Below are positions 2,918 through 14,480 of a stretch of DNA of 31,064 nucleotides, in pieces; the first letter of the stretch is position 1, and every line of letters starts with the position of its first letter. A program made the position numbers and the translations under genes. The stretch lies in UHGV virus genome UHGV-0851987; one strand, 5' to 3'. The notes under the pieces are model-generated. The model was not told where the DNA came from, searched no databases, and saw nothing but the letters and a program-made list of their open reading frames with translations. Source of the stretch: a virus.

Positions 2918-3133
2918 ATGAGCAACCTACGAAAATATCGAGAGTCACTGAATATCTCTCAAACAACACTTGCTAAGGCGGTTGGATGCACACAGGGAGC
3001 TATTGGGCATTGGGAATCTGGTCGTCGCTTCCCAGACCTTAAAACATGCCGCGCTCTTGTTGCATGCCTAAACAAGTTAGGCGCAAAAGTCAGTCTTGAT
3101 GACGTGTTCCCTCCGGAACACAAAGCCGCTTAA
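2918..3133 (+). CDS. cro: Cro-like HTH repressor (71 aa)
   Basis: ATG at 2918 preceded by GGAGGG. The protein MSNLRKYRESLNISQTTLAKAVGCTQGAIGHWESGRRFPD has an XRE-type HTH, and its recognition-helix motif TQG-IGHW--G-R-P is shared with the CI N-domain. The track ORF 2678..3133 is an upstream over-extension. Confidence 0.8.
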   Translation: MSNLRKYRESLNISQTTLAKAVGCTQGAIGHWESGRRFPDLKTCRALVACLNKLGAKVSLDDVFPPEHKAA

Positions 3134-3141
3134 GACATTCC

Positions 3142-3173
3142 AGCTCTTACACATTCCAGCCCTGAAAAAGGGC
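3142..3173 (+). promoter_or_regulatory. nutR site (boxA plus boxB)
   Basis: AGCTCTTACA (boxA-like, 3142-3151), spacer CATTCCAG, then GCCCTGAAAAAGGGC (boxB, 3159-3173). Matches lambda nutR as I recall it. Confidence 0.85.
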
Positions 3174-3239
3174 ATCCAATTAAACCACACCTATGGTGTA
3201 TGCATTTATTTGCATACATTCAATCAATTGTTATCTAAG

Positions 3240-3276
3240 GAAATACTTACATATGGTTCGTGCAAACAAACGCAAC
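3240..3276 (-). promoter_or_regulatory. PRE-like promoter with CII-binding TTGC-N6-TTGC repeats
   Basis: Minus strand reads TTGCGTTTGTTTGC (complement of 3262-3275), overlapping the first codons of cII as in lambda PRE. Confidence 0.55.
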
Positions 3277-3549
3277 GAGGCTCTACGAATCGAGAGTGCG
3301 TTGCTTAACAAAATCGCAATGCTTGGAACTGAGAAGACAGCGGAAGCTGTGGGCGTTGATAAGTCGCAGATCAGCAGGTGGAAGAGGGACTGGATTCCAA
3401 AGTTCTCAATGCTGCTTGCTGTTCTTGAATGGGGTGTTGTCGACGACGACATGGCTCGATTGGCACGACAAGTTGCTTCGATTCTCACCAATAAAAAACG
3501 CCCGGTGTGCAAGACCGAGCGTTCTGAACAAATCCAGATGGAGTTCTGA
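3253..3549 (+). CDS. cII: Transcriptional activator CII (lambda type)
   Basis: Translation from ATG 3253 is [84 protein letters not shown]...[10 protein letters not shown], close to my recollection of lambda CII. The track ORF 3193..3549 is over-extended. Confidence 0.95.
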
Positions 3550-4620: not shown

Positions 4621-6046
4621 TTTTTATGCGCCGCCCCATAGCATCGAGGCAGAGCAGGCGGTGATTGGTGGATTGCTTCTGGATGATGACAGCAGTGAGC
4701 GCGTCCAGAAAGTTCTGGCGATGCTGAAGCCTGATTCATTTTACAGCCGACCACACAAAATCCTTTTCGAAGAAATAACCAGAATGCACCGGGAGCAAAA
4801 GCCAGTAGATGGCCTGACGCTTTTCGATGAACTGGAGCGTAAATCGTTAACGGCGTCTGTTGGCGGTTTTGCTTATATCGCTGAGATCGCAAAGAACACG
4901 CCAAGCGCAGCAAACATCGTTGCCTATGCAATGCAGGTTCGTGAAACCGCAATGGAACGCTACGCCATCAACCGCATGACTGAAGCGACGGAATTGCTCT
5001 ATTCCCGCAACGGAATGACTGCAACGCAGAAGTACGAAGCTATTCAGTCGATTTTCACGCAACTGACAGACCATGCAAAAACCGGATCGCGTCGCGGCCT
5101 TCGCTCATTTGGTGAGGTCATGGAAGACTGGGTTAGCGACCTTGAGAAGCGATTTGACCCGTCAGGCGAACAACGAGGAATGAGCACAGGGATCCCATCG
5201 CTGGACAGGATGCTGTCACCGAAAGGTCTGGTGAAAGGCTCTCTGTTTGTCATTGGCGCTCGCCCTAAGATGGGGAAAACGACGCTATACAGCCAGATGG
5301 CAATCAACTGCGCAGTGCATGAGAAAAAGCCCGCTCTGATGTTCAGCCTTGAAATGCCCGGTGACCAGATACTGGAAAAACTGGTAGGGCAGAAGTCAGG
5401 TGTTAACCCAAATATTTTTTACCTTCCAGCGACAAATGACGCTGATGACGGCTATCAGGGTGATTACGATGGTGACTTCAACAGGGCGATCGAAACAGCA
5501 AATCGCTTGAGTGAAATCGACCTGCTTTACATCGACGACACGCCGGGATTATCTCTGGCTCAAATCGTCAGTGAAAGCCGTCGAATCAAGCGAGAAAAAG
5601 GATGTGTTGGCATGATTCTGGTCGATTACCTGACACTAATGACCGCTGAGAAGGCCGATCGCAACGACCTTGCTTACGGCATGATCACCAAAGGACTGAA
5701 GAATCTTGCCAAAGAGCTTGATTGCGTTGTTGTGCTTCTGACACAGCTTAACCGCGCACTGGAAAGCCGAACCAATAAACGCCCATTACCAAGTGACTCA
5801 CGAGATACAGGGCAGATTGAACAGGATTGCGATTATTGGGTGGGGATCCATCGTGAAGGTGCTTTTGATGACAGCGTTCCTCCTGGTGAAACCGAACTAA
5901 TCCTTCGCCTCAATCGTCATGGCAATACCGGCACGGTGTATTGCATTCAGGCAAATGGCGCTATTTATGACACAGACCAACAGTCTGCTGAAATGCGCCG
6001 CCGTGAACGCGAGGAACCGCAGTCCAAGAAGAAAGGAGGATTCTGA
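4610..6046 (+). CDS. Replicative DNA helicase, DnaB family
   Basis: DnaB N-terminal domain (HSIEAEQAVIGGLLLD), Walker A GARPKMGKTT and DnaB-type C-terminal motifs. Start at ATG 4610 after GAGGG; the track start at 4595 is a short over-extension. Confidence 0.9.
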   Translation: MTDNFYAPPHSIEAEQAVIGGLLLDDDSSERVQKVLAMLKPDSFYSRPHKILFEEITRMHREQKPVDGLTLFDELERKSLTASVGGFAYIAEIAKNTPSAANIVAYAMQVRETAMERYAINRMTEATELLYSRNGMTATQKYEAIQSIFTQLTDHAKTGSRRGLRSFGEVMEDWVSDLEKRFDPSGEQRGMSTGIPSLDRMLSPKGLVKGSLFVIGARPKMGKTTLYSQMAINCAVHEKKPALMFSLEMPGDQILEKLVGQKSGVNPNIFYLPATNDADDGYQGDYDGDFNRAIETANRLSEIDLLYIDDTPGLSLAQIVSESRRIKREKGCVGMILVDYLTLMTAEKADRNDLAYGMITKGLKNLAKELDCVVVLLTQLNRALESRTNKRPLPSDSRDTGQIEQDCDYWVGIHREGAFDDSVPPGETELILRLNRHGNTGTVYCIQANGAIYDTDQQSAEMRRREREEPQSKKKGGF

Positions 6047-8318: not shown

Positions 8319-9063
8319 GTTAATGAATGGCAATGCCATCAAAATGACAAGCATTGAAATCGCTGAGTTGGTGGGTAAGCGTCATGACAATGTGAAACGT
8401 ACCATCGAAACGCTGGCTAAAAATGGTGTTATCCGGCTTCCTCAAATTGAGGTTTCCGAAAGAATCAATAACTTAGGGTTCAATGTTCAGTACGAGCATT
8501 ACGTCTTCGAGGGCGAACAAGGTAAGCGAGACAGTATTGTCGTTGTTGCCCAGTTGTCGCCAGAGTTCACCGCTCGTCTTGTTGACCGTTGGCGAGAGCT
8601 TGAAGAAACTGCGGTTAATATCCCCAAAACGCTACCAGAAGCATTGCGCCTTGCTGCTGATCTTGCTGAGCAGAAAATGCAACTGGAAAACCAGCTCGCA
8701 ATTGCCGCACCTAAAGTTGAGTTTGCCGATCGCGTTGGCGAGGCCAGTGGAATTTTGATTGGAAACTTTGCAAAGGTTGTTGGTATTGGTCCGAACAAAC
8801 TGTTTGCGTGGATGCGCGATCACAAAATCCTTATTGCTTCAGGTTCCCGGCGCAATGTGCCAATGCAGGAATATATGGATCGCGGCTATTTCGCAGTGAA
8901 AGAAACAGCGGTCAACACAAATCACGGAATACAGATATCGTTCACCACAAAAATCACCGGGCGTGGTCAACAGTGGCTGACCAGAAAGCTGCTCGATAAC
9001 GGAATGCTGAAAGTAACAGGCGGACGGCTTGGAATAAAAATCACCGAACTGGAGAACGCATGA
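8311..9063 (+). CDS. Phage antirepressor, Rha-type N-terminal domain plus KilAC-type C-terminal domain
   Basis: N-terminus MTSIEIAELVGKRHDNVKRTIETL is typical of Rha-family regulators; the C-terminal half is typical of KilA-C antirepressor domains. The start may be 8311, 8323 or 8344. Confidence 0.75.
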   Translation: MSELMNGNAIKMTSIEIAELVGKRHDNVKRTIETLAKNGVIRLPQIEVSERINNLGFNVQYEHYVFEGEQGKRDSIVVVAQLSPEFTARLVDRWRELEETAVNIPKTLPEALRLAADLAEQKMQLENQLAIAAPKVEFADRVGEASGILIGNFAKVVGIGPNKLFAWMRDHKILIASGSRRNVPMQEYMDRGYFAVKETAVNTNHGIQISFTTKITGRGQQWLTRKLLDNGMLKVTGGRLGIKITELENA

Positions 9064-9248
9064 ACGCCACAATTCAAACGATACCAGAGCTTCTTATCCA
9101 GACACGAGGCAATCAGACCGAAGTGGCGAGGATGCTTTCCTGCGCAAGAGGAACAGTGCTCAAGTACAACCGAGACAGCAAAGGCGATCGTCACGTAATA
9201 GTTAACGGCGTCCTGATGGTCAAACAGGGAAAGAGGGGAAGACGATGA
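9060..9248 (+). CDS. ninH: NinH-like protein
   Basis: Core GNQTEVARMLSCARGTVLKY and VNGVLMV resemble lambda NinH. ATGA overlap with the antirepressor stop. Confidence 0.7.
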   Translation: MNATIQTIPELLIQTRGNQTEVARMLSCARGTVLKYNRDSKGDRHVIVNGVLMVKQGKRGRR

Positions 9249-9733
9249 GCATAAGAGAACTAAACCTCACCAAAGAGCAGCACGAGTGGCTGAATGGCTG
9301 GCTTGAACTGTGGGGAGCATGGGTTTATTCAGGCCGCCTGGAAAAGCGCATGAGCAGCGTAATAGCGAAGTTCATGGAGAGCGTAGAGCCGGGAAGAGTT
9401 ATGACAAGGCCAATGTGTAATGATGATGATGGAATGTTGATTTCTCAGGTCGTCGATTCCGTCATGTACATTGACAAGAAAGCCTTTGGCATCCTCCTCA
9501 GCTACTACGCTCATGGATCTTCCAAGCATGCCATTGCATCTTACTATCATCGTGTCGCAAGACCTCGCAAGATGTTATGCCGGGGCGGCGGGCGTATTCA
9601 AAAACCATCGCTCGCAACCTGTCGCCGGGAAGTTGACGAAATCCTCAATGCTTCGTTGTTTATGATTTACCCGGTTCTGGATAGTGCGTTTAAAAATCGG
9701 AAACGTGTAGAGAAAATTAAACATGTAGCATAG
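9245..9733 (+). CDS. Q: Late-gene antitermination protein Q (phage 82 / QuuD-like family)
   Basis: WGAW ... RP.C.DDD motif pattern typical of the Q82/QuuD family. Position immediately upstream of the late promoter region and lysis genes. GAGGGGA RBS; ATGA overlap with ninH. Confidence 0.75.
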   Translation: MSIRELNLTKEQHEWLNGWLELWGAWVYSGRLEKRMSSVIAKFMESVEPGRVMTRPMCNDDDGMLISQVVDSVMYIDKKAFGILLSYYAHGSSKHAIASYYHRVARPRKMLCRGGGRIQKPSLATCRREVDEILNASLFMIYPVLDSAFKNRKRVEKIKHVA

Positions 9734-9739
9734 AACTTG

Positions 9740-9780
9740 TTGACATCATTGAGCAAATGAGCAACACTATTGGCATAAGC
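9740..9780 (+). promoter_or_regulatory. Candidate late promoter PR' and Q-utilisation region
   Basis: TTGACA at 9740-9745, located 6 nt after the Q stop. No convincing -10 hexamer at 17-nt spacing, so the assignment is positional. Confidence 0.35.
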
Positions 9781-9820
9781 TGCCGTTAGTGACTCTTAAG
9801 TTGCAACGGTGGCTTTTTTT
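9781..9820 (+). terminator. Intrinsic terminator downstream of PR' (tR'-like)
   Basis: Stem CTGCCGTT/AACGGTGG (with G-U pairs) followed by C and a 7-nt T run (9814-9820). Confidence 0.5.
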
Positions 9821-9824
9821 ATTT

Positions 9825-9896
9825 GGGTCAGTCGTATAAAGGTCATTACGGAAGGCTGTTAACCTTCTTATCGTGGTTCGAGTCCACGCTGTCCCG
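9825..9896 (+). tRNA. tRNA-Asn (anticodon GUU)-like, with one acceptor-stem mismatch
   Basis: Hand fold: acceptor GGGTCAG/CTGTCCC (U-U mismatch at 4:69), D-loop with GG, anticodon stem GAAGG/CCTTC with loop CUGUUAA, T-arm CGTGG-TTCGAGT-CCACG, discriminator G, encoded CCA at 9897-9899. Confidence 0.5.
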
Positions 9897-9904
9897 CCAA
9901 ATAT

Positions 9905-9977
9905 GCTGGTTTAGCTCCAATGGTAGAGCAGTCGCCTTGTAAGCGAATGGGTAGCGGTTCAAGTCCGTTAACCAGCA
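9905..9977 (+). tRNA. tRNA-Thr (anticodon UGU)
   Basis: Hand fold: acceptor GCTGGTT/AACCAGC, U8 A9, D-arm GCTC-CAATGGTA-GAGC, anticodon loop CUUGUAA, T-arm AGCGG-TTCAAGT-CCGTT, discriminator A, encoded CCA at 9978-9980. Confidence 0.65.
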
Positions 9978-10222
9978 CCATAACTGAGCCGTAGCCACTT
10001 GCTATCCTGGATTCATCAGTGATAGTTACGCTGCGGCCTTCTACGCATGACCTTCGTGAAAGCGGGTGGCATGAGGTTGCCCTAACAACCTCCTGCCGTT
10101 TTGCCCGTGCATATCGGTCACGAACAAATCTGATTACTAAACACAGTAGCCTGGATTTGTTCTATCAGTAACCGACCATATTCCTAATTAAATAGAGCAA
10201 ATCCCCTTATTGGGGGTAAGAC

Positions 10223-10546
10223 ATGAAGATGCCAGAAAAAAATGACCTGTTAGCCGCCATTCTCGCGGCAAAGGAACAAGGCATCGGGGCAATCCTTGCG
10301 TTTGCAATGGCGTACCTTCGCGGCAGATATAATGGCGGTGCGTTTACAAAAACAGTAATCGACGCAACGATGTGCGCCATTATCGCCTGGTTCATTCGTG
10401 ACCTTCTCGACTTCGCCGGACTAAGTAGCAATCTCGCTTATATAACGAGCGTGTTCATCGGCTACATCGGTACTGACTCGATTGGTTCGCTTATCAAACG
10501 CTTCGCTGCTAAAAAAGCCGGAGTAGAAGATGGTGGAAATCAATAA
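10223..10546 (+). CDS. S: Holin, lambda S type (dual-start MKM motif)
   Basis: Translation [62 protein letters not shown]... is nearly identical to lambda S as I recall it. Confidence 0.95.
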
Positions 10547-11006
10547 TCAACGTAAGGCGTTCCTCGATATGCTGGCGTGGTCAGAGGGAACTGATAACGG
10601 ACGGCAGAAAACCAGAAATCATGGTTATGACGTCATTGTTGGCGGAGAGCTATTCACTGATTACTCCGATCACCCTCGCAAACTTGTCACGCTAAACCCA
10701 AAACTCAAATCAACAGCCGCCGGACGCTACCAGCTTCTTTCCCGTTGGTGGGATGCCTACCGCAAGCAGCTTGGCCTGAAAGACTTCTCTCCCAAAAGCC
10801 AGGACGCTGTTGCGCTGCAGCAGATTAAGGAGCGTGGCGCTTTGCCGATGATTGATCGCGGTGATATCCGTCAGGCAATCGACCGTTGCAGCAATATCTG
10901 GGCTTCATTGCCGGGAGCTGGTTATGGTCAGTTCGAGCATAAGGCTGACAGTCTGATTTCAAAATTCAAAGAAGCAGGCGGAACGGTCAGAGAGATTGAG
11001 GTATGA
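10530..11006 (+). CDS. R: Endolysin, lambda R type (lytic transglycosylase)
   Basis: Translation [51 protein letters not shown]... matches lambda R as I recall it. Confidence 0.95.
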
Positions 11007-11461
11007 GCAGAGTAACCGCGATTATCTCCGCTCTGGTTATCTGCATCATCGTTTGCCTGTCATGGGCTGTTAATCATTACCGTGATAATGCCATCGCCTA
11101 CAAAGAACAGCGTGATAAAAAAGTCAGTGAGCTGAAGCAGGCGACCGCCACCATCGCTGACATGCAGCAGCGTCAGCGTGATGTTGCAGAACTTGACGCC
11201 AGATACACAAAGGAGCTTGCTGATGCTAACGCGACTATCGAAAGTCTCCGTGCTGATGTTTCTGCTGGGCGTAAGCGGCTGCAAGTCGCCGCCACCTGTG
11301 CAAAGTCAACGACCGGAGCCAGCGGCATGGGCGATGGAGAAAGCCCAAGACTTACAGCAGATGCTGAACTCAATTATTACCGTCTCAGAAGTGGAATCGA
11401 CAGGATAACCGCGCAGGTTAACTACCTGCAGGAATACATAAGGACGCAATGCCTTCGATGA
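11003..11461 (+). CDS. Rz: Spanin inner-membrane subunit Rz
   Basis: N-terminal TM segment ([18 protein letters not shown]), coiled-coil periplasmic domain, lambda Rz-like sequence. Confidence 0.9.
11223..11408 (+). CDS. Rz1: Spanin outer-membrane lipoprotein subunit Rz1 (embedded in Rz, +1 frame)
   Basis: Embedded ORF with AGGAG RBS (11211-11215). Lipoprotein signal peptide [20 protein letters not shown] with lipobox, then a proline-rich stretch. Confidence 0.75.
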
Positions 11462-11839
11462 TAGCGATAATTTTACTCATCATCCTTCACATCTGGCTCT
11501 GTAGGCAGGGTGGTGATCACTTCTGGAGTGAATCCAGATTAAACATCTCATTGCTGATGCTTGAAGTTGAGCATCTGGCGCGCGGTAAGGGGCTGCGTTG
11601 AGATAAGGGCCAGTTCATTACAAAGCCTATCTACGGGTGGGCTTGATAATGAAACCGGAATTTATTCTGGGCAACCAGTTACGGCAGTACAGCGAAACAA
11701 CCCAAGCCAGTAAGTGGGGAAATAACACTGGCAGCCACTGAAAGATGAACCTCCTGCCTTATGGCAAAAAAGATTCTTTGTGGTGGCGGACTGATGGAAA
11801 GACATCCTAATCAAGCAACCACTCCACAGGGTCATAATT

Positions 11840-12220
11840 ATGAACGACCAGCAAATCGAAAAAGAAATCGTTGAGAAAGGCAAAACGGCACCGCGAATCA
11901 CCCCGCAGCATATCGAAGACGTGATTAAAAGCGAGCATTACTTTACTGCTTATGATGGACGAAATGGTGCCATTTCCAGCAACGAATATTGTGGCAGGGA
12001 AAAACCAGAAGAAGGCGATCGTGATTTATCACCATTGAAGTTGCTCACTTTCTGCGTACTGGTGCTGAAGAATGGCTTCACCGTCACCGGAGAGAGTGCC
12101 TGTGCAAGCCCTGAAAACTTTGATGCAGAAATTGGTCGGAAGATTGCCAGGCAGAATGCTGTAAACAAAATCTGGATGCTCGAAGGTTACTTGCTGAAGC
12201 AGAAGCTAAGCGAACAGTAG
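11840..12220 (+). CDS. Hypothetical phage protein (126 aa)
   Basis: ORF in track between lysis and packaging modules. No family confidently recognised. Confidence 0.6.
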   Translation: MNDQQIEKEIVEKGKTAPRITPQHIEDVIKSEHYFTAYDGRNGAISSNEYCGREKPEEGDRDLSPLKLLTFCVLVLKNGFTVTGESACASPENFDAEIGRKIARQNAVNKIWMLEGYLLKQKLSEQ

Positions 12221-12323
12221 TTATTACAAAAGCCATTCCCTACAGAGTGGCTTTGACAATGGCTTATACCCTACACGGGATAACTTAACTGATATCCCTT
12301 TTAACGGATAAACGGAGCCAACA

Positions 12324-12566
12324 ATGGCAGAGATTATTCCCATGACTGAAGAACAGAAATTCCAGTTAGAGATTTACAAACTGGTCATGAACCAGAACGC
12401 AGCCGCAGAAGAAGCATTTCAGTTCATCGGCACTGACGAGCTGAAGCTTGAGCTATTCAAAATTCACTTCCAGTCAGGCGGCGCTAATTCAGATATCACG
12501 ACTCGTACTATCGAAGCGGTGCGTAAATCGAAGGAAGCGTTAGACCTGTTCACTACCGGAGCATAA
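12324..12566 (+). CDS. Hypothetical phage protein (80 aa)
   Basis: ORF in track with ACGGAG RBS. Same position as small ORFs upstream of the small terminase gene in P22-like phages. Confidence 0.55.
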   Translation: MAEIIPMTEEQKFQLEIYKLVMNQNAAAEEAFQFIGTDELKLELFKIHFQSGGANSDITTRTIEAVRKSKEALDLFTTGA

Positions 12567-12645
12567 ACATGGCAACTCAAGGTTTCGACAACCCATCCAA
12601 ATTCCGCGATGAATGGGATAAGCAAGCAGAAGGGAAATAATCAAT

Positions 12646-13071
12646 ATGGCGACTGAGAAAAAGAAAGGTGGTCGCCCCTCTGATTATATGCCGGAGGTGG
12701 CTAATGACATTTGCGCATTGCTTTCCTCCGGTGAGAGTCTGCGCAAAGTTTGCGAACGCCCAGGAATGCCGAGCAAAACATCAGTTTTTCGCTGGCTGGC
12801 TGAACATCAGGAGTTTCGTGACCAGTACGCGAAGGCAACAGAGACTCGGGCCGACTCTATTTTCGAAGAGATATTCGAAATTGCTGACGACGTAATCCCT
12901 GATGCCGCCGAGGTGGCAAAGGCAAGACTTCGCGTTGATACCCGCAAATGGGCGCTGGCCCGAATGAATCCCCGTAAGTATGGCGACAAGGTAACTAACG
13001 AGCTTGTCGGTAAGGACGGCGGCGCAATTCAGATTGAAACATCACCGATGAGCACTCTATTCGGAAAATGA
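12646..13071 (+). CDS. Terminase small subunit (Sf6 gp1-like)
   Basis: Translation GRPSDYMPEVANDICALLSSGESLRKVCERPGMPSKTSVFRWLAEH... matches my recollection of the Sf6 small terminase. Directly precedes and overlaps the large terminase. Confidence 0.85.
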   Translation: MATEKKKGGRPSDYMPEVANDICALLSSGESLRKVCERPGMPSKTSVFRWLAEHQEFRDQYAKATETRADSIFEEIFEIADDVIPDAAEVAKARLRVDTRKWALARMNPRKYGDKVTNELVGKDGGAIQIETSPMSTLFGK

Positions 13072-14480
13072 CCTCGATTAATCCTATCTTTGAACCGTTC
13101 ATTGAGGCGCATCGCTACAAAGTCGCCAAAGGCGGTCGAGGTAGCGGTAAGTCATGGGCAATTGCGAGGCTGCTTGTTGAAGCGGCGCGTCGGCAGCCAG
13201 TGCGTATTCTCTGCGCTCGTGAACTGCAAAACAGTATCAGCGATTCGGTAATCCGGTTGCTTGAAGATACCATCGAGCGTGAAGGGTATTCGGCTGAGTT
13301 TGAAATTCAGCGTTCCATGATTCGTCATCTCGGAACGAATGCTGAGTTCATGTTCTACGGCATCAAAAACAATCCGACGAAGATTAAATCTCTCGAAGGC
13401 ATTGATATCTGCTGGGTGGAAGAAGCGGAAGCGGTAACGAAGGAATCATGGGATATCCTGATACCAACCATCCGTAAGCCGTTCTCTGAAATATGGGTGA
13501 GCTTTAACCCGAAAAACATACTCGACGATACCTATCAGCGATTCGTAGTAAACCCTCCCGATGATATTTGTCTGCTGACGGTGAACTACACCGACAACCC
13601 GCACTTTCCTGAAGTTCTCCGTCTGGAGATGGAAGAGTGCAAACGCAGAAATCCGACACTGTATCGTCACATCTGGCTGGGTGAGCCGGTAAGCGCAAGT
13701 GATATGGCAATCATCAAACGTGAATGGCTTGAAGCTGCAACCGATGCGCACAGGAAACTAGGATGGAAGGCGAAAGGCGCTGTTGTCTCTGCGCATGACC
13801 CATCAGATACAGGGCCAGATGCTAAAGGTTATGCATCGCGTCACGGTTCGGTAGTTAAGCGCATTGCCGAAGGTCTGCTGATGGACATCAACGAGGGTGC
13901 TGACTGGGCTACTTCTCTGGCGATTGAAGACGGCGCTGACCACTACCTGTGGGATGGTGATGGTGTTGGTGCCGGGCTACGCAGACAGACAACGGAAGCG
14001 TTCTCCGGCAAGAAAATCACCGCCACGATGTTCAAGGGCAGCGAATCGCCATTTGATGAAGATGCGCCTTATCAGGCCGGAGCATGGGCTGATGAAGTCG
14101 TACAGGGCGACAACGTTCGCACTATTGGTGATGTGTTCCGCAATAAGCGAGCGCAATTCTATTACGCGCTGGCTGACAGGCTTTATCTGACATATCGGGC
14201 GGTTGTTCACGGTGAGTATGCAGACCCCGACGACATGCTGAGTTTCGACAAAGAAGCAATAGGCGAGAAGATGCTGGAGAAGCTGTTTGCAGAACTGACG
14301 CAGATTCAGCGCAAATTCAATAATAACGGGAAGCTGGAGCTTATGACTAAGGTCGAAATGAAGCAGAAGCTCGGTATTCCATCTCCTAACCTGGCTGATG
14401 CGCTGATGATGTGTATGCATTGCCCGGCATTGGTCCGCGAAGAAACAGAAATATACGTTCCCTCATCCTCCGGTTGGTAA
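13068..14480 (+). CDS. Terminase large subunit (ATPase/nuclease)
   Basis: Walker A KGGRGSGKS, Walker B-like ICWVEEAE, and a C-terminal nuclease domain pattern. ATGA overlap with the small terminase. Confidence 0.95.
   Translation: MTSINPIFEPFIEAHRYKVAKGGRGSGKSWAIARLLVEAARRQPVRILCARELQNSISDSVIRLLEDTIEREGYSAEFEIQRSMIRHLGTNAEFMFYGIKNNPTKIKSLEGIDICWVEEAEAVTKESWDILIPTIRKPFSEIWVSFNPKNILDDTYQRFVVNPPDDICLLTVNYTDNPHFPEVLRLEMEECKRRNPTLYRHIWLGEPVSASDMAIIKREWLEAATDAHRKLGWKAKGAVVSAHDPSDTGPDAKGYASRHGSVVKRIAEGLLMDINEGADWATSLAIEDGADHYLWDGDGVGAGLRRQTTEAFSGKKITATMFKGSESPFDEDAPYQAGAWADEVVQGDNVRTIGDVFRNKRAQFYYALADRLYLTYRAVVHGEYADPDDMLSFDKEAIGEKMLEKLFAELTQIQRKFNNNGKLELMTKVEMKQKLGIPSPNLADALMMCMHCPALVREETEIYVPSSSGW

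What the first reader, a model, noticed from the sequence alone, without database searches (positions are those of the whole stretch)
11462..12645. Accessory region between the lysis cassette and the packaging genes
After Rz there are about 380 bp without a convincing ORF, then two small genes (126 aa and 80 aa) of unknown function before the small terminase. In lambda this junction holds bor and cos; in P22 it holds small uncharacterised ORFs. The region is a typical moron slot and could carry a defence, anti-defence or virulence function, or the pac-proximal regulatory sequence.
Basis: inference. Interest (0 to 1): 0.45.

Follow-up and report, generated by a model that had tools for sequence, protein, structure and literature searches.

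The report
Anti-defence gene slot before phage terminase
The stretch between the lysis and packaging genes of this Sf6-like phage carries an already catalogued Acb4-family gene, predicted to soak up bacterial alarm nucleotides, plus a conserved small gene of unknown function, so it is mostly ordinary.

Summary
Rz ends at 11461, a 378-bp gap follows, then ORFs of 126 aa (11840-12220) and 80 aa (12324-12566), then the small terminase (12646). The region is about 97% identical to Shigella phage Sf6 genes 65-66-67.

- **ORF126** belongs to Pfam PF13876, the Acb4 family of cyclic-dinucleotide sponges that inhibit CBASS. Its exact sequence is in the published Acb4 homolog table. It is 45% identical to phage N4 Acb4, and its model matches only the SPO1 Acb4 crystal structure. 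It is an optional 413-bp cassette.
- **The slot** between Rz and ORF80 holds Tad2-like or Acb2 sponges, Rha or KilA-N proteins in related phages. It is an anti-defence hot spot inside the late operon.
- **Moron status**: no own promoter or terminator was detected, so it is not a classical moron.
- **ORF80** is DUF2560 (P22 orf80). It is translated, under strong purifying selection, acidic and four-helical. It occurs only in P22-like phages of enterobacteria. Its function is unknown.
- **The gap** is non-coding. The annotated 50-aa "gene 65" shows no coding signature.
- **pac role**: unsupported, because the same sequence precedes at least four small-terminase families.

Verdict: already known, moderate-to-low interest. 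DUF2560 is the open question.

The parts
11003..11461 (+). Rz i-spanin. It marks the end of the lysis cassette and is the left boundary of the slot.
   Evidence: PF03245 E 1e-40 and phrog_13 E 3e-79. About 92% identical to Sf6 gene 63.
11449..11601 (+). 50-aa ORF equal to Sf6 'gene 65'. It is probably not a protein-coding gene. It forms part of the conserved 3' trailer of lambdoid lysis cassettes.
   Evidence: phrog_11822 E 9e-38 and annotated in Sf6 and RefSeq. Variable sites fall 10/10/12 by codon position, with 37 synonymous against 66 non-synonymous differences and internal stops in 2 of 26 variants. The region is present in 43 of 82 related loci. It also follows Rz in cos-type prophages.
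11614..11653 (+). Hairpin H1 (TTCATTACAAAGCC...GGCTTGATAATGAA). It lies at the junction where other phages carry inserted genes.
   Evidence: Inverted repeat I3, 14-nt arms, 86% complementary. It is part of a fold with z -2.7. HK620 (hkbK/hkbL) and Huey (Tad2-like gene) have their insertions immediately upstream of it.
11680..11806 (.). Conserved non-coding backbone block.
   Evidence: Present in 74 of 82 related loci whether or not acb4 follows. Stop codons occur in all three frames and there is no codon-position bias. No Rfam match.
11807..12220 (+). Optional acb4 cassette: a 33-bp leader with a weak Shine-Dalgarno sequence plus the CDS 11840-12220 (126 aa). It is an Acb4-family (PF13876) predicted cyclic-dinucleotide sponge.
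   Evidence: PF13876 E 3e-35, 120.8 bits against a cutoff of 27. PDB 9e4w Acb4 at E 0.007 by sequence. 9e4w chains take the first 13 Foldseek ranks, probability 1.0; the next hit has E 0.15. The sequence is identical to A0A0H2Z1H7 in Table S3 of Chang et al.. 45% identical to N4 Acb4. The cassette is present in 23 of 82 loci and precisely absent from HK620. 78 synonymous against 8 non-synonymous differences.
12221..12323 (+). Leader of the DUF2560 gene, with hairpin H2 (12221-12264), a second hairpin (about 12276-12298) and a GGAG Shine-Dalgarno sequence.
   Evidence: Fold z-score -4.56, with 0 of 200 shuffles folding as well. Inverted repeat I9. H2 shares its flanks with H1. Positions 12223-12312 alone account for many of the matches in 2537 of 5426 E. 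coli genomes.
12324..12566 (+). DUF2560 gene (80 aa), equal to Sf6 gene 67, HK620 hkbM and P22 orf80. It encodes an acidic four-helix protein of unknown function.
   Evidence: PF10834 E 1e-43 and phrog_571. 45 distinct DNA variants encode the identical protein, with variable sites 3/0/28 by codon position. AF2 model pLDDT 87.8 with four helices. pI 4.7. No informative structural or sequence relative.
12567..12645 (.). Short spacer before terS. This is a second variable slot that holds Sf6 gene 68/hkbN or the Dec decoration protein in other phages. Here only a 23-aa ORF (12570-12641) is present.
   Evidence: Similarity to Sf6 and HK620 stops at 12564 and resumes at 12640. hkbN is present in 14 of 70 loci and Dec in 6 of 70. 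The 23-aa ORF has no family hit.
12646..13071 (+). Small terminase of the Sf6 gp1 type. It is the right boundary of the slot.
   Evidence: PF20901 E 1e-44 and phrog_1482 E 7e-67.

Best explanation
The region is the Sf6 gene 65-66-67 segment of a P22-like (Sf6-type) phage or prophage. It is a mosaic accessory slot inside the late operon, between the lysis cassette and the terminase genes.

ORF126 is an Acb4-family protein. By homology it should assemble into a homotetramer whose subunit interfaces bind and sequester cyclic dinucleotides made by host CBASS cyclases. The likely ligands are 3'3'-cGAMP and, as in homologs from phages of Gram-negative hosts, c-di-AMP-type signals. Sequestration would keep the CBASS effector unactivated during late infection.

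ORF126 is a self-contained 413-bp cassette that is present or absent between otherwise collinear phages. The same slot carries Tad2-like or Acb2 sponges, or Rha/KilA-N proteins, in relatives. The slot therefore works as an anti-defence gene-exchange hot spot.

ORF80 (DUF2560, P22 orf80) is a separate, strongly conserved backbone gene of enterobacterial P22-like phages. It encodes a small acidic helical protein. Its function is not known. My best guess, at low confidence, is a non-essential protein that binds a host or defence protein.

The 378-bp gap is non-coding backbone with conserved hairpins, not a gene.

Shown here: family membership, fold, cassette boundaries, slot contents, purifying selection. 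Inferred: tetramer formation, ligand, late-operon expression, any role of DUF2560.
For: **Identity of the region**
- About 97% nucleotide identity to Sf6 genes 63-67.
- The portal protein is 99.7% identical to that of Sf6.

**ORF126 as an Acb4-family member**
- PF13876 at 120.8 bits against a cutoff of 27.
- PF13876 is the Acb4 family (Chang et al., bioRxiv 10.1101/2024.12.30.630793).
- The exact sequence is in their Table S3 as A0A0H2Z1H7.
- The AF2 model has pLDDT 87.4. Its only significant PDB matches are chains of 9e4w, SPO1 Acb4 with cGAMP.
- 45% identical, E 4e-29, to N4 Acb4. N4 Acb4 is cited as a cyclic-nucleotide sponge, and its expression alone activates the Panoptes defence (PMC12657230).
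- The segment equivalent to the SPO1 ligand loop (A87-D95, with F94) and F80 are invariant or nearly invariant in the subfamily.
- All eight homologs tested by Chang et al. bound 3'3'-cGAMP.

**Cassette and hot spot**
- Junctions at 11806/11807 and 12220/12221.
- Close homologs occur fused to Tad2 or Sequestin domains.
- Slot occupants include Tad2-like (PF11195; PDB Tad2 E 2e-17) and Acb2 (PF24729; PDB 7uq2 and 8h2j, E 2e-8).
- 19 of 70 fully visible slots hold at least one sponge.

**Expression**
- Same strand as the late genes, with no + strand terminator or promoter between Rz and terS.

**DUF2560**
Against: - No binding or phage-challenge experiment exists for this protein or, as far as I could find, for any member of the Sf6 gp66 clade.
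- Several SPO1 ligand-contact residues are not conserved: K36->L68, E49->T81, Y57->A89, T70->I102, K81->M113. Ligand specificity may therefore differ.
- The protein carries an N-terminal extension and a hypervariable insert of about 30 residues that SPO1 Acb4 lacks.
- Tetramer formation could not be modelled with the tools available.
- Expression only from the late operon is inferred from a simple consensus scan.
- For DUF2560 there is no functional evidence at all. Its link to anti-defence is only by neighbourhood. Its near-universal presence in enterobacterial P22-like phages fits a backbone role as well as an accessory one.
Confidence: 0.8

Rival explanations
1. The stretch carries the pac site or a packaging-regulatory sequence recognised by the small terminase. 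ORF80 would then be a packaging accessory protein.
For: It lies immediately upstream of terS. DUF2560 and its distant homologs occur only in phages with a P22-type portal and usually sit between lysis and terS. The leader contains stable hairpins.
Against: - An identical DUF2560 protein and near-identical upstream DNA precede at least four TerS families: P22 gp3-type in 28 loci, Sf6 gp1-type in 25, a 147-aa type in 24, and the Terminase_2 type in 5. A pac signal should co-vary with its TerS.
- In P22 the pac site lies inside the terS gene (PMC9611059).
- The hairpin and leader segment also occurs in cos-type lambdoid prophages.
- In one phage lineage DUF2560 is encoded antisense between the portal and scaffold genes, away from terS.
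- From my own knowledge, orf80 is not among the conditional-lethal genes of P22.
Confidence: 0.07
2. ORF126 is an anti-CRISPR protein, as annotated for the identical gene in phage Huey.
For: The Huey record labels both its Gp49 homolog and the upstream DUF2829 gene 'anti-CRISPR protein'. Two other phage records use the same label for Gp49 homologs.
Against: - The label is traceable for DUF2829, which is the family of AcrIIA7 as well as Tad2. I found no published Acr of the PF13876 family.
- AcrIIA9 is a PcfK-domain protein, not a Gp49 protein.
- The only solved relative is a cGAMP-bound sponge.
- Fusions of Acb4 with Tad2 domains could have spread the label by transitive annotation. This last point is my inference.
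Confidence: 0.03
3. The two genes are prophage-expressed morons that protect or alter the lysogen (superinfection exclusion, defence or virulence).
For: In one lineage DUF2560 is an independent antisense unit.
Against: - No hit to 5027 defence-system models.
- No promoter or terminator signal above chance, and none flanking the genes on the + strand.
- ORF126 belongs to a counter-defence family that benefits the phage, not the host.
- Neither ORF126 nor ORF80 has a predicted signal peptide or membrane segment. Both are hydrophilic (GRAVY -0.62 and -0.20).
Confidence: 0.05
4. DUF2560 is itself an anti-defence protein, either a new inhibitor or a sponge. This would make the whole 11807-12566 stretch a two-gene anti-defence island.
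For: - It sits next to a slot that holds three different sponge families.
- It is small (80 aa), helical and acidic (pI 4.7), like many phage inhibitor proteins.
- It is under strong purifying selection.
- It is movable as an independent unit.
Against: - It is not related to Sequestin (hhalign probability 1%) or to any solved protein.
- It has no known fusion to sponge domains. The few long hits look like chimeras or low-complexity matches.
- Its acidic surface is unlike the positively charged pockets typical of sponges.
- Anti-defence genes are usually patchy, whereas this one is nearly universal and almost invariant in its phage group.
Confidence: 0.2

Closest known systems
Acb4 (anti-CBASS 4) sponge family, Pfam PF13876 / Phage_gp49_66. 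Founding member: Bacillus phage SPO1 Acb4 (PDB 9e4w). E. coli phage N4 Acb4 (gp49).
   Same: - Strong Pfam match, and the same core fold with a three-stranded sheet flanked by helices.
- Conserved aromatic and hydrophobic pocket residues: SPO1 F48, F62 and I66 correspond to window F80, F94 and I98.
- 45% identity to N4 Acb4.
- Phage-encoded small protein, and listed by the discoverers as a homolog.
   Different: - Only 24-25% identical to SPO1 Acb4.
- The nucleobase- and phosphate-specific contacts of SPO1 (K36, E49, Y57, T70, K81) are replaced.
- It has an extra N-terminal helix and a hypervariable two-helix insert of about 30 residues between strands 1 and 2.
- It is untested biochemically.
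- It is encoded in the late operon of a temperate P22-like phage, not in a lytic phage.
Shigella phage Sf6 genes 65, 66, 67 (Casjens et al. 2004 annotation). HK620 hkbM. P22 orf80.
   Same: About 97% nucleotide identity and the same gene order. ORF126 differs from Sf6 gp66 by one residue. ORF80 is identical to Sf6 gp67 and HK620 HkbM, and 98.8% identical to P22 Orf80.
   Different: - The window lacks 57 bp that Sf6 has in the gap.
- It lacks Sf6 gene 68/hkbN between gene 67 and terS.
- Its terS is only about 86% identical in nucleotides to Sf6 gene 1. The closest listed match for terS is HK620, at 91.5% over the whole 12300-13100 query.
Anti-signalling hot spot of N4-like (Migulavirinae) phages, holding Tad2, Tad3, Acb4, Sequestin and Bes1/2 (bioRxiv 10.64898/2026.06.04.730250).
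   Same: A fixed genomic position in one phage group that holds different nucleotide-sponge genes in different members (Acb4, Tad2). Sponge domains are also found fused together.
   Different: - A different phage group and a different position: between lysis and terminase in the late operon, rather than among replication genes.
- Most occupants here are Rha or KilA-N proteins and homing-endonuclease-like genes, not sponges. Only about 27% of slots hold a sponge.
- I found no description of this hot spot for P22-like phages in the papers searched.
Lambdoid 'morons' (for example lambda bor downstream of Rz).
   Same: An extra gene, present or absent between conserved neighbours, at the junction between lysis and packaging.
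   Different: No own promoter or terminator was detected. It has the same orientation as the late operon, so it is probably expressed with the late genes rather than from the prophage.

Membership tests
Acb4 / PF13876 | Sequence match to the family profile above the curated threshold | tested here: met
   PF13876 E 3.4e-35, 120.8 bits against a cutoff of 27, covering profile positions 1-82 of 82. The exact sequence is in the discoverers' homolog table.
Acb4 / PF13876 | Acb4 protomer fold: three antiparallel strands flanked by N-terminal helices and a long C-terminal helical region | tested here: met
   The AF2 model (pLDDT 87.4) has strands at 29-36, 69-76 and 81-87 and a C-terminal helix at 96-125. 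The first 13 Foldseek PDB ranks are all 9e4w chains, probability 1.0, TM (target) 0.60-0.70. The next hit has E 0.15.
Acb4 / PF13876 | Homotetrameric pinwheel with four ligand pockets at subunit interfaces | not testable with these tools
   Only monomer prediction was available. Chang et al. report that all eight modelled homologs fold as tetramers.
Acb4 / PF13876 | Conservation of the ligand-contact residues of SPO1 Acb4 | tested here: inconclusive
   SPO1 F48, F62 and I66 are kept as window F80, F94 and I98. N63 becomes D95, a backbone contact in SPO1. K36, E49, V56, Y57, T70 and K81 are replaced by L68, T81, C88, A89, I102 and M113. N4 Acb4 shares T and C at the E49 and V56 positions.
Acb4 / PF13876 | Binds 3'3'-cGAMP or related CBASS signals and rescues phage from CBASS | not testable with these tools
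   This needs EMSA or ITC and plaque assays. The published data cover SPO1 Acb4, eight homologs (identities not held in the text) and N4 Acb4.
DUF2560 / PF10834 | Sequence match to the family profile above the curated threshold | tested here: met
   E 1.1e-43, 147.7 bits against a cutoff of 25, covering the full profile of 72 positions.
Moron (strict sense: an inserted gene with its own promoter and terminator) | Presence/absence polymorphism between otherwise collinear phages | tested here: met
   The acb4 cassette 11807-12219 is present in 23 of 82 related loci and precisely absent from HK620. This is not met for DUF2560, which is present in all loci.
Moron (strict sense: an inserted gene with its own promoter and terminator) | Own promoter upstream and terminator downstream | tested here: not met
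   3 promoter-like and 3 terminator-like sites were found, against 2.7 and 2.9 expected. The only + strand site is a weak promoter-like match inside ORF126. The scan is a simple consensus scan, so weak signals could be missed.
pac / packaging recognition region | The sequence co-varies with the small-terminase type that recognises it | tested here: not met
   An identical DUF2560 and conserved leader lie upstream of at least four TerS families. The leader also occurs in cos-type prophages.
Sequestin / PF21825 (small helical sponge) | Profile similarity of DUF2560 to a Sequestin domain | tested here: not met
   hhalign probability 1.1% against the Sequestin domain of P0200. No PF21825 hit at E up to 0.1.
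Known anti-phage defence systems (PADLOC-DB) | Match of any ORF in the region to a defence-system protein model | tested here: not met
   No hits at E up to 1 for ORF126, ORF80, the 50-aa ORF or the 23-aa ORF.

The most novel reading that the evidence does not exclude
DUF2560 (P22 orf80, Sf6 gp67) is a new kind of counter-defence or host-takeover protein specific to enterobacterial P22-like phages. The junction between lysis and terminase in these phages would then be a previously undescribed anti-defence island. It would consist of a fixed DUF2560 gene flanked by a swap site for nucleotide sponges (Acb4, Tad2, Acb2). The conserved hairpins with shared flanks (H1, H2) would mark the cassette exchange points.
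Probability: 0.2. Interest if true: 0.55.

Novelty: already known. Interest (0 to 1): 0.33.

Why it matters
- **Annotation.** 'Gp49 family protein' and Sf6 gene 66 can be read as a predicted CBASS-signal sponge. The 'anti-CRISPR' label on the identical gene in phage Huey has no support that I could find.
- **Prevalence.** This acb4 lineage matches 525 of 5426 complete E. coli genomes, 116 of them over at least 80% of the cassette. Prophage-borne sponges are therefore common in E. coli. They could affect which superinfecting or induced phages escape CBASS, and which hosts' Panoptes-type guards fire.
- **Discovery.** The junction between lysis and terminase in P22-like phages is a compact, well-delimited place to look for further counter-defence genes. 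Unknown occupants include a 95-aa protein and a 66-aa predicted membrane protein next to Acb2 in L019, HkbL, and others.
- **DUF2560.** It is a strongly constrained gene of well-studied phages (P22, Sf6, HK620) that still has no known function.

Tried and rejected
- **Solved relatives of DUF2560.** PDB sequence searches with the single sequence and with a profile gave nothing.
- **Exhaustive profile search of 1.84 billion representatives.** It found 75 hits, all small DUF2560-like proteins or apparent chimeras, with no informative fusion.
- **DUF2560 against Sequestin.** No relation.
- **Defence-system models (PADLOC) and NCBIfam.** Nothing for any ORF.
- **Rfam on 9000-13500.** Only the two tRNAs passed the gathering threshold.
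- **Locus search with a divergent DUF2560 alignment.** I used encoding-contig look-ups instead.
- **Small ORFs in the gap.** I tested 11649-11741, 11761-11874 and 'gene 65' for a coding signature and rejected all three.
- **Which eight Acb4 homologs were tested biochemically.** The table is in a figure that is not held, so I could not tell whether an Sf6-clade protein was among them.
- **Sf6 pac site.** The literature search returned Bacillus phage SF6 instead. Only the P22 statement could be used.
- **AcrIIA9 as the source of the 'anti-CRISPR' label on Gp49.** Rejected, because AcrIIA9 is a PcfK-domain protein.
Full report
**1. The observation**

The ORF list and the sequence confirm the anatomy.

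- Rz is 11003-11461 (PF03245, E 1e-40).
- A 378-bp gap follows.
- The 126-aa ORF is 11840-12220 and the 80-aa ORF is 12324-12566.
- The small terminase is 12646-13071 (PF20901, Sf6 type) and TerL is 13068-14480.
- Upstream lie tRNA-Asn and tRNA-Thr, then a lambda-type holin and endolysin.

The window is an Sf6-like member of the P22-like phages. The region is about 97% identical to Sf6 genes 63-67. The portal protein is 99.7% identical to that of Sf6.

**2. Are the ORFs real genes?**

I compared the window with 85 related loci: five annotated records and 80 IMG/VR contigs that carry the same 80-aa protein.

| Feature | Variable sites by codon position (1/2/3) | Synonymous / non-synonymous | Other |
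|---|---|---|---|
| ORF126 | 6/1/19 | 78 / 8 | unbiased sample |
| ORF80 | 3/0/28 | 293 / 0 | 45 DNA variants, one protein; loci picked by protein identity |
| 'gene 65' (11449-11601) | 10/10/12 | 37 / 66 | internal stops in 2 of 26 variants |

ORF126 and ORF80 are translated and under purifying selection. The ORF80 ratio is inflated by the way the loci were chosen, but that many silent variants of one protein still imply constraint.

'Gene 65' is annotated in Sf6 and RefSeq but shows no coding signature. The conserved block 11680-11806 has stops in every frame.

**3. ORF126 is an Acb4-family protein**

- It matches Pfam PF13876 (Phage_gp49_66) at 120.8 bits.
- Chang et al. (bioRxiv 10.1101/2024.12.30.630793) showed that SPO1 Acb4 is a member of PF13876. 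It is a tetrameric sponge that sequesters 3'3'-cGAMP and blocks CBASS. All eight further homologs they purified bound 3'3'-cGAMP. Those from phages of Gram-negative hosts also bound 3'3'-c-di-AMP.
- The window protein is letter-for-letter their Table S3 entry A0A0H2Z1H7 (E. coli APEC O1). It differs by one residue from Sf6 gp66.
- A direct PDB sequence search finds only Acb4 (9e4w, E 0.007).
- An AF2 model (pLDDT 87.4) finds 9e4w chains as its first 13 Foldseek PDB matches, at probability 1.0 and TM 0.60-0.70. The next hit has E 0.15.
- It is 45% identical (E 4e-29) to phage N4 Acb4. In E. coli, N4 Acb4 is necessary for N4 to activate the Panoptes guard system, and its expression alone is sufficient to activate it (PMC12657230).

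Mapping the SPO1 ligand contacts gives a mixed picture.

| SPO1 residue | Window residue | Status |
|---|---|---|
| F48, F62, I66 | F80, F94, I98 | conserved |
| N63 | D95 | backbone contact in SPO1 |
| K36 | L68 | replaced |
| E49 | T81 | replaced |
| V56 | C88 | replaced |
| Y57 | A89 | replaced |
| T70 | I102 | replaced |
| K81 | M113 | replaced |

N4 Acb4 shares the T and C states at the E49 and V56 positions. The loop equivalent to the SPO1 ligand loop (A87-D95) is almost invariant in the subfamily.

The protein has an extra N-terminal helix. It also has a hypervariable insert at about residues 38-67 that SPO1 Acb4 lacks.

Family membership and fold are therefore shown. Tetramer formation, ligand and CBASS inhibition are inferred.

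**4. ORF126 is an optional cassette in a hot spot**

Pairwise comparison places sharp junctions.

- HK620 runs continuously from the homolog of 11806 to the homolog of 12220. It lacks exactly the 413 bp that hold a 33-bp leader and the CDS up to its stop codon.
- Among 82 related loci the cassette is present in 23. The block upstream is present in 74 and the leader downstream in 77-81.
- A second insertion point lies at about 11616-11624. HK620 carries hkbK (KilA-N) and hkbL there. Phage Huey and E. coli 55989 carry a DUF2829 gene there.

Pfam and PDB searches identified the occupants of the Rz-to-DUF2560 interval.

- Rha plus ORF11CD3.
- KilA-N, with or without ORF11CD3.
- DUF551.
- T5orf172/MUG113 nuclease-like proteins.
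- Tad2-like proteins (PF11195; PDB Tad2 E 2e-17).
- An Acb2-family protein in L019 (PF24729; PDB 7uq2 and 8h2j, E 2e-8).

Occupancy of the 70 fully visible slots:

| Occupant | Slots |
|---|---|
| Acb4 | 16 |
| Tad2-like | 4 |
| Acb2 | 1 |
| At least one sponge | 19 |
| Rha | 26 |
| No recognised occupant | 14 |

The smallest interval between Rz and DUF2560 is 308 bp. Close Acb4 homologs also occur fused to Tad2 or Sequestin domains, as reported by others.

Three unrelated sponge families share this position. It behaves like the anti-signalling hot spot recently described in N4-like phages. I found no description of it for P22-like phages.

**5. Expression**

All genes lie on the late-operon strand. 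The consensus scan found no promoter-like or terminator-like sites above expectation, and none flanking the genes on the + strand. [quoted passage not shown] I therefore infer late, Q-dependent expression together with the lysis and head genes. On this reading the cassette is not a moron with its own signals.

**6. ORF80 (DUF2560)**

- It matches PF10834 at 147.7 bits. It is identical to Sf6 gp67 and HK620 HkbM and 98.8% identical to P22 Orf80.
- The family is narrow. The word-indexed search found 93 clusters. An exhaustive profile search of 1.84 billion representatives found 75 hits, nearly all 75-90 aa proteins.
- Distant members (30-45% identical) are all encoded in phages with a P22-type portal and, where the locus reaches it, a P22-type coat. 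They usually sit between lysis and terS. In one lineage the gene lies antisense between portal and scaffold.
- In the phage collection, about 150 records carry it at full length. That is about the number of enterobacterial P22-like portal records. P22-like phages of Vibrio and of aphid symbionts appear among the portal hits but not among the DUF2560 hits.
- It is present in 889 of 5426 complete E. coli genomes.
- The AF2 model (pLDDT 87.8) is a four-helix protein with pI 4.7.
- No solved or predicted structure with a known function resembles it. It is not related to Sequestin.

Its function remains unknown. I rank a protein-binding counter-defence or host-interaction role first, at about 0.2, on neighbourhood, size and charge. 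A packaging role ranks lower for three reasons. The gene is independent of TerS type. It can sit away from terS. From my own knowledge, it is not among P22's essential genes.

**7. pac**

The same DUF2560 protein and leader precede at least four TerS families. The hairpin and leader segment also follows the lysis cassette in cos-type lambdoid prophages. In P22 the pac site lies inside terS. There is no support for a TerS-specific signal in 11462-12645.

**8. Other non-coding features**

Two stable hairpins share the flanks TTAC(A)AAAGCC...GGCTT(T)GAnAAT. H1 is 11614-11653 and H2 is 12221-12264. Both lie at cassette junctions. Variants keep the stems through C-G to U·G changes, which is weak evidence for an RNA-level role. 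They could be 3'-end or processing hairpins, or boundary sequences for recombination. I could not decide between these.

**9. Verdict**

ORF126 is an already catalogued, though not individually tested, Acb4-family sponge. ORF80 is the known-unknown P22 orf80. The modestly new points are that this junction is a sponge-exchange hot spot in P22-like phages and that DUF2560 is a tightly constrained gene beside it.

Noticed in passing
window 9825-9899 and 9905-9980: tRNA-Asn (GTT) and tRNA-Thr (TGT) genes lie just upstream of the holin, as annotated in Sf6.
   Followed up: no
window 11614-11653 and 12221-12264: Two stable hairpins share the flanks TTAC(A)AAAGCC...GGCTT(T)GAnAAT and sit at the points where gene cassettes are inserted or lost. 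Fold z-scores are -2.7 and -4.6. Stem variants are C-G to U·G changes. Their role is undecided: RNA 3'-end or processing site, or recombination boundary.
   Followed up: partly
window 12223-12312; L093 2501-2590; L094 2501-2590: The query 12221-12566 matches 2537 of 5426 complete E. coli genomes, but only 889 cover at least 80% of it. In sampled low-coverage hits the match is the 90-bp stretch 12223-12312 alone. In cos-type lambdoid prophages (DUF1441 TerS) this stretch follows the 'gene 65' ORF after Rz.
   Followed up: partly
phage records HK97, HK544, HK75, HK446, HK106, mEp235, mEpX1: These HK97-like siphoviruses keep only the first 27-28 codons of DUF2560 (93-96% identical) near the right end of their genomes. 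This indicates a mosaic junction inside the gene. It corresponds to phrog_23132.
   Followed up: no
window 12567-12645; L001 2727-2918; L003 2728-2907; L045 4136-4537: A second variable slot lies between DUF2560 and terS. It is 79 bp here. In other phages it holds Sf6 gene 68/hkbN (14 of 70 loci) or the phage-L head decoration protein Dec (6 of 70 loci; PDB 6e3c, E 2e-81).
   Followed up: partly
window 11950-12040 (ORF126 residues about 38-67): ORF126 contains a hypervariable insert between strands 1 and 2, while its flanks stay at least 95% identical. Many E. coli genomes match the cassette only in two pieces at the ends. SPO1 Acb4 and short homologs lack the insert.
   Followed up: partly
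L002 (phage Huey) 1784-2284 and 2519-2899: Huey labels both its DUF2829/Tad2-like gene and its Gp49 gene 'anti-CRISPR protein'. DUF2829 is the AcrIIA7 family, but I found no basis for the label on the Gp49/Acb4 gene.
   Followed up: partly
L086, L087, L088 at 5001-5237: In one metagenomic P22-like lineage the DUF2560 gene lies on the opposite strand between the portal and scaffold genes. It is therefore an independent unit away from lysis and terS.
   Followed up: no
L019 2593-3470: This slot holds an Acb2-family gene (2923-3204). It is flanked by an unknown 95-aa ORF (2593-2880) and a 66-aa ORF with a hydrophobic C-terminus (3270-3470). Both are candidates for further counter-defence genes.
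   Followed up: no
L040 2247-2855; L018 2022-2516: The commonest slot occupants, Rha- and KilA-N-domain proteins, share a C-terminal ORF11CD3 domain (PF10549). Why such DNA-binding proteins sit in the late operon next to sponges is unexplained.
   Followed up: no
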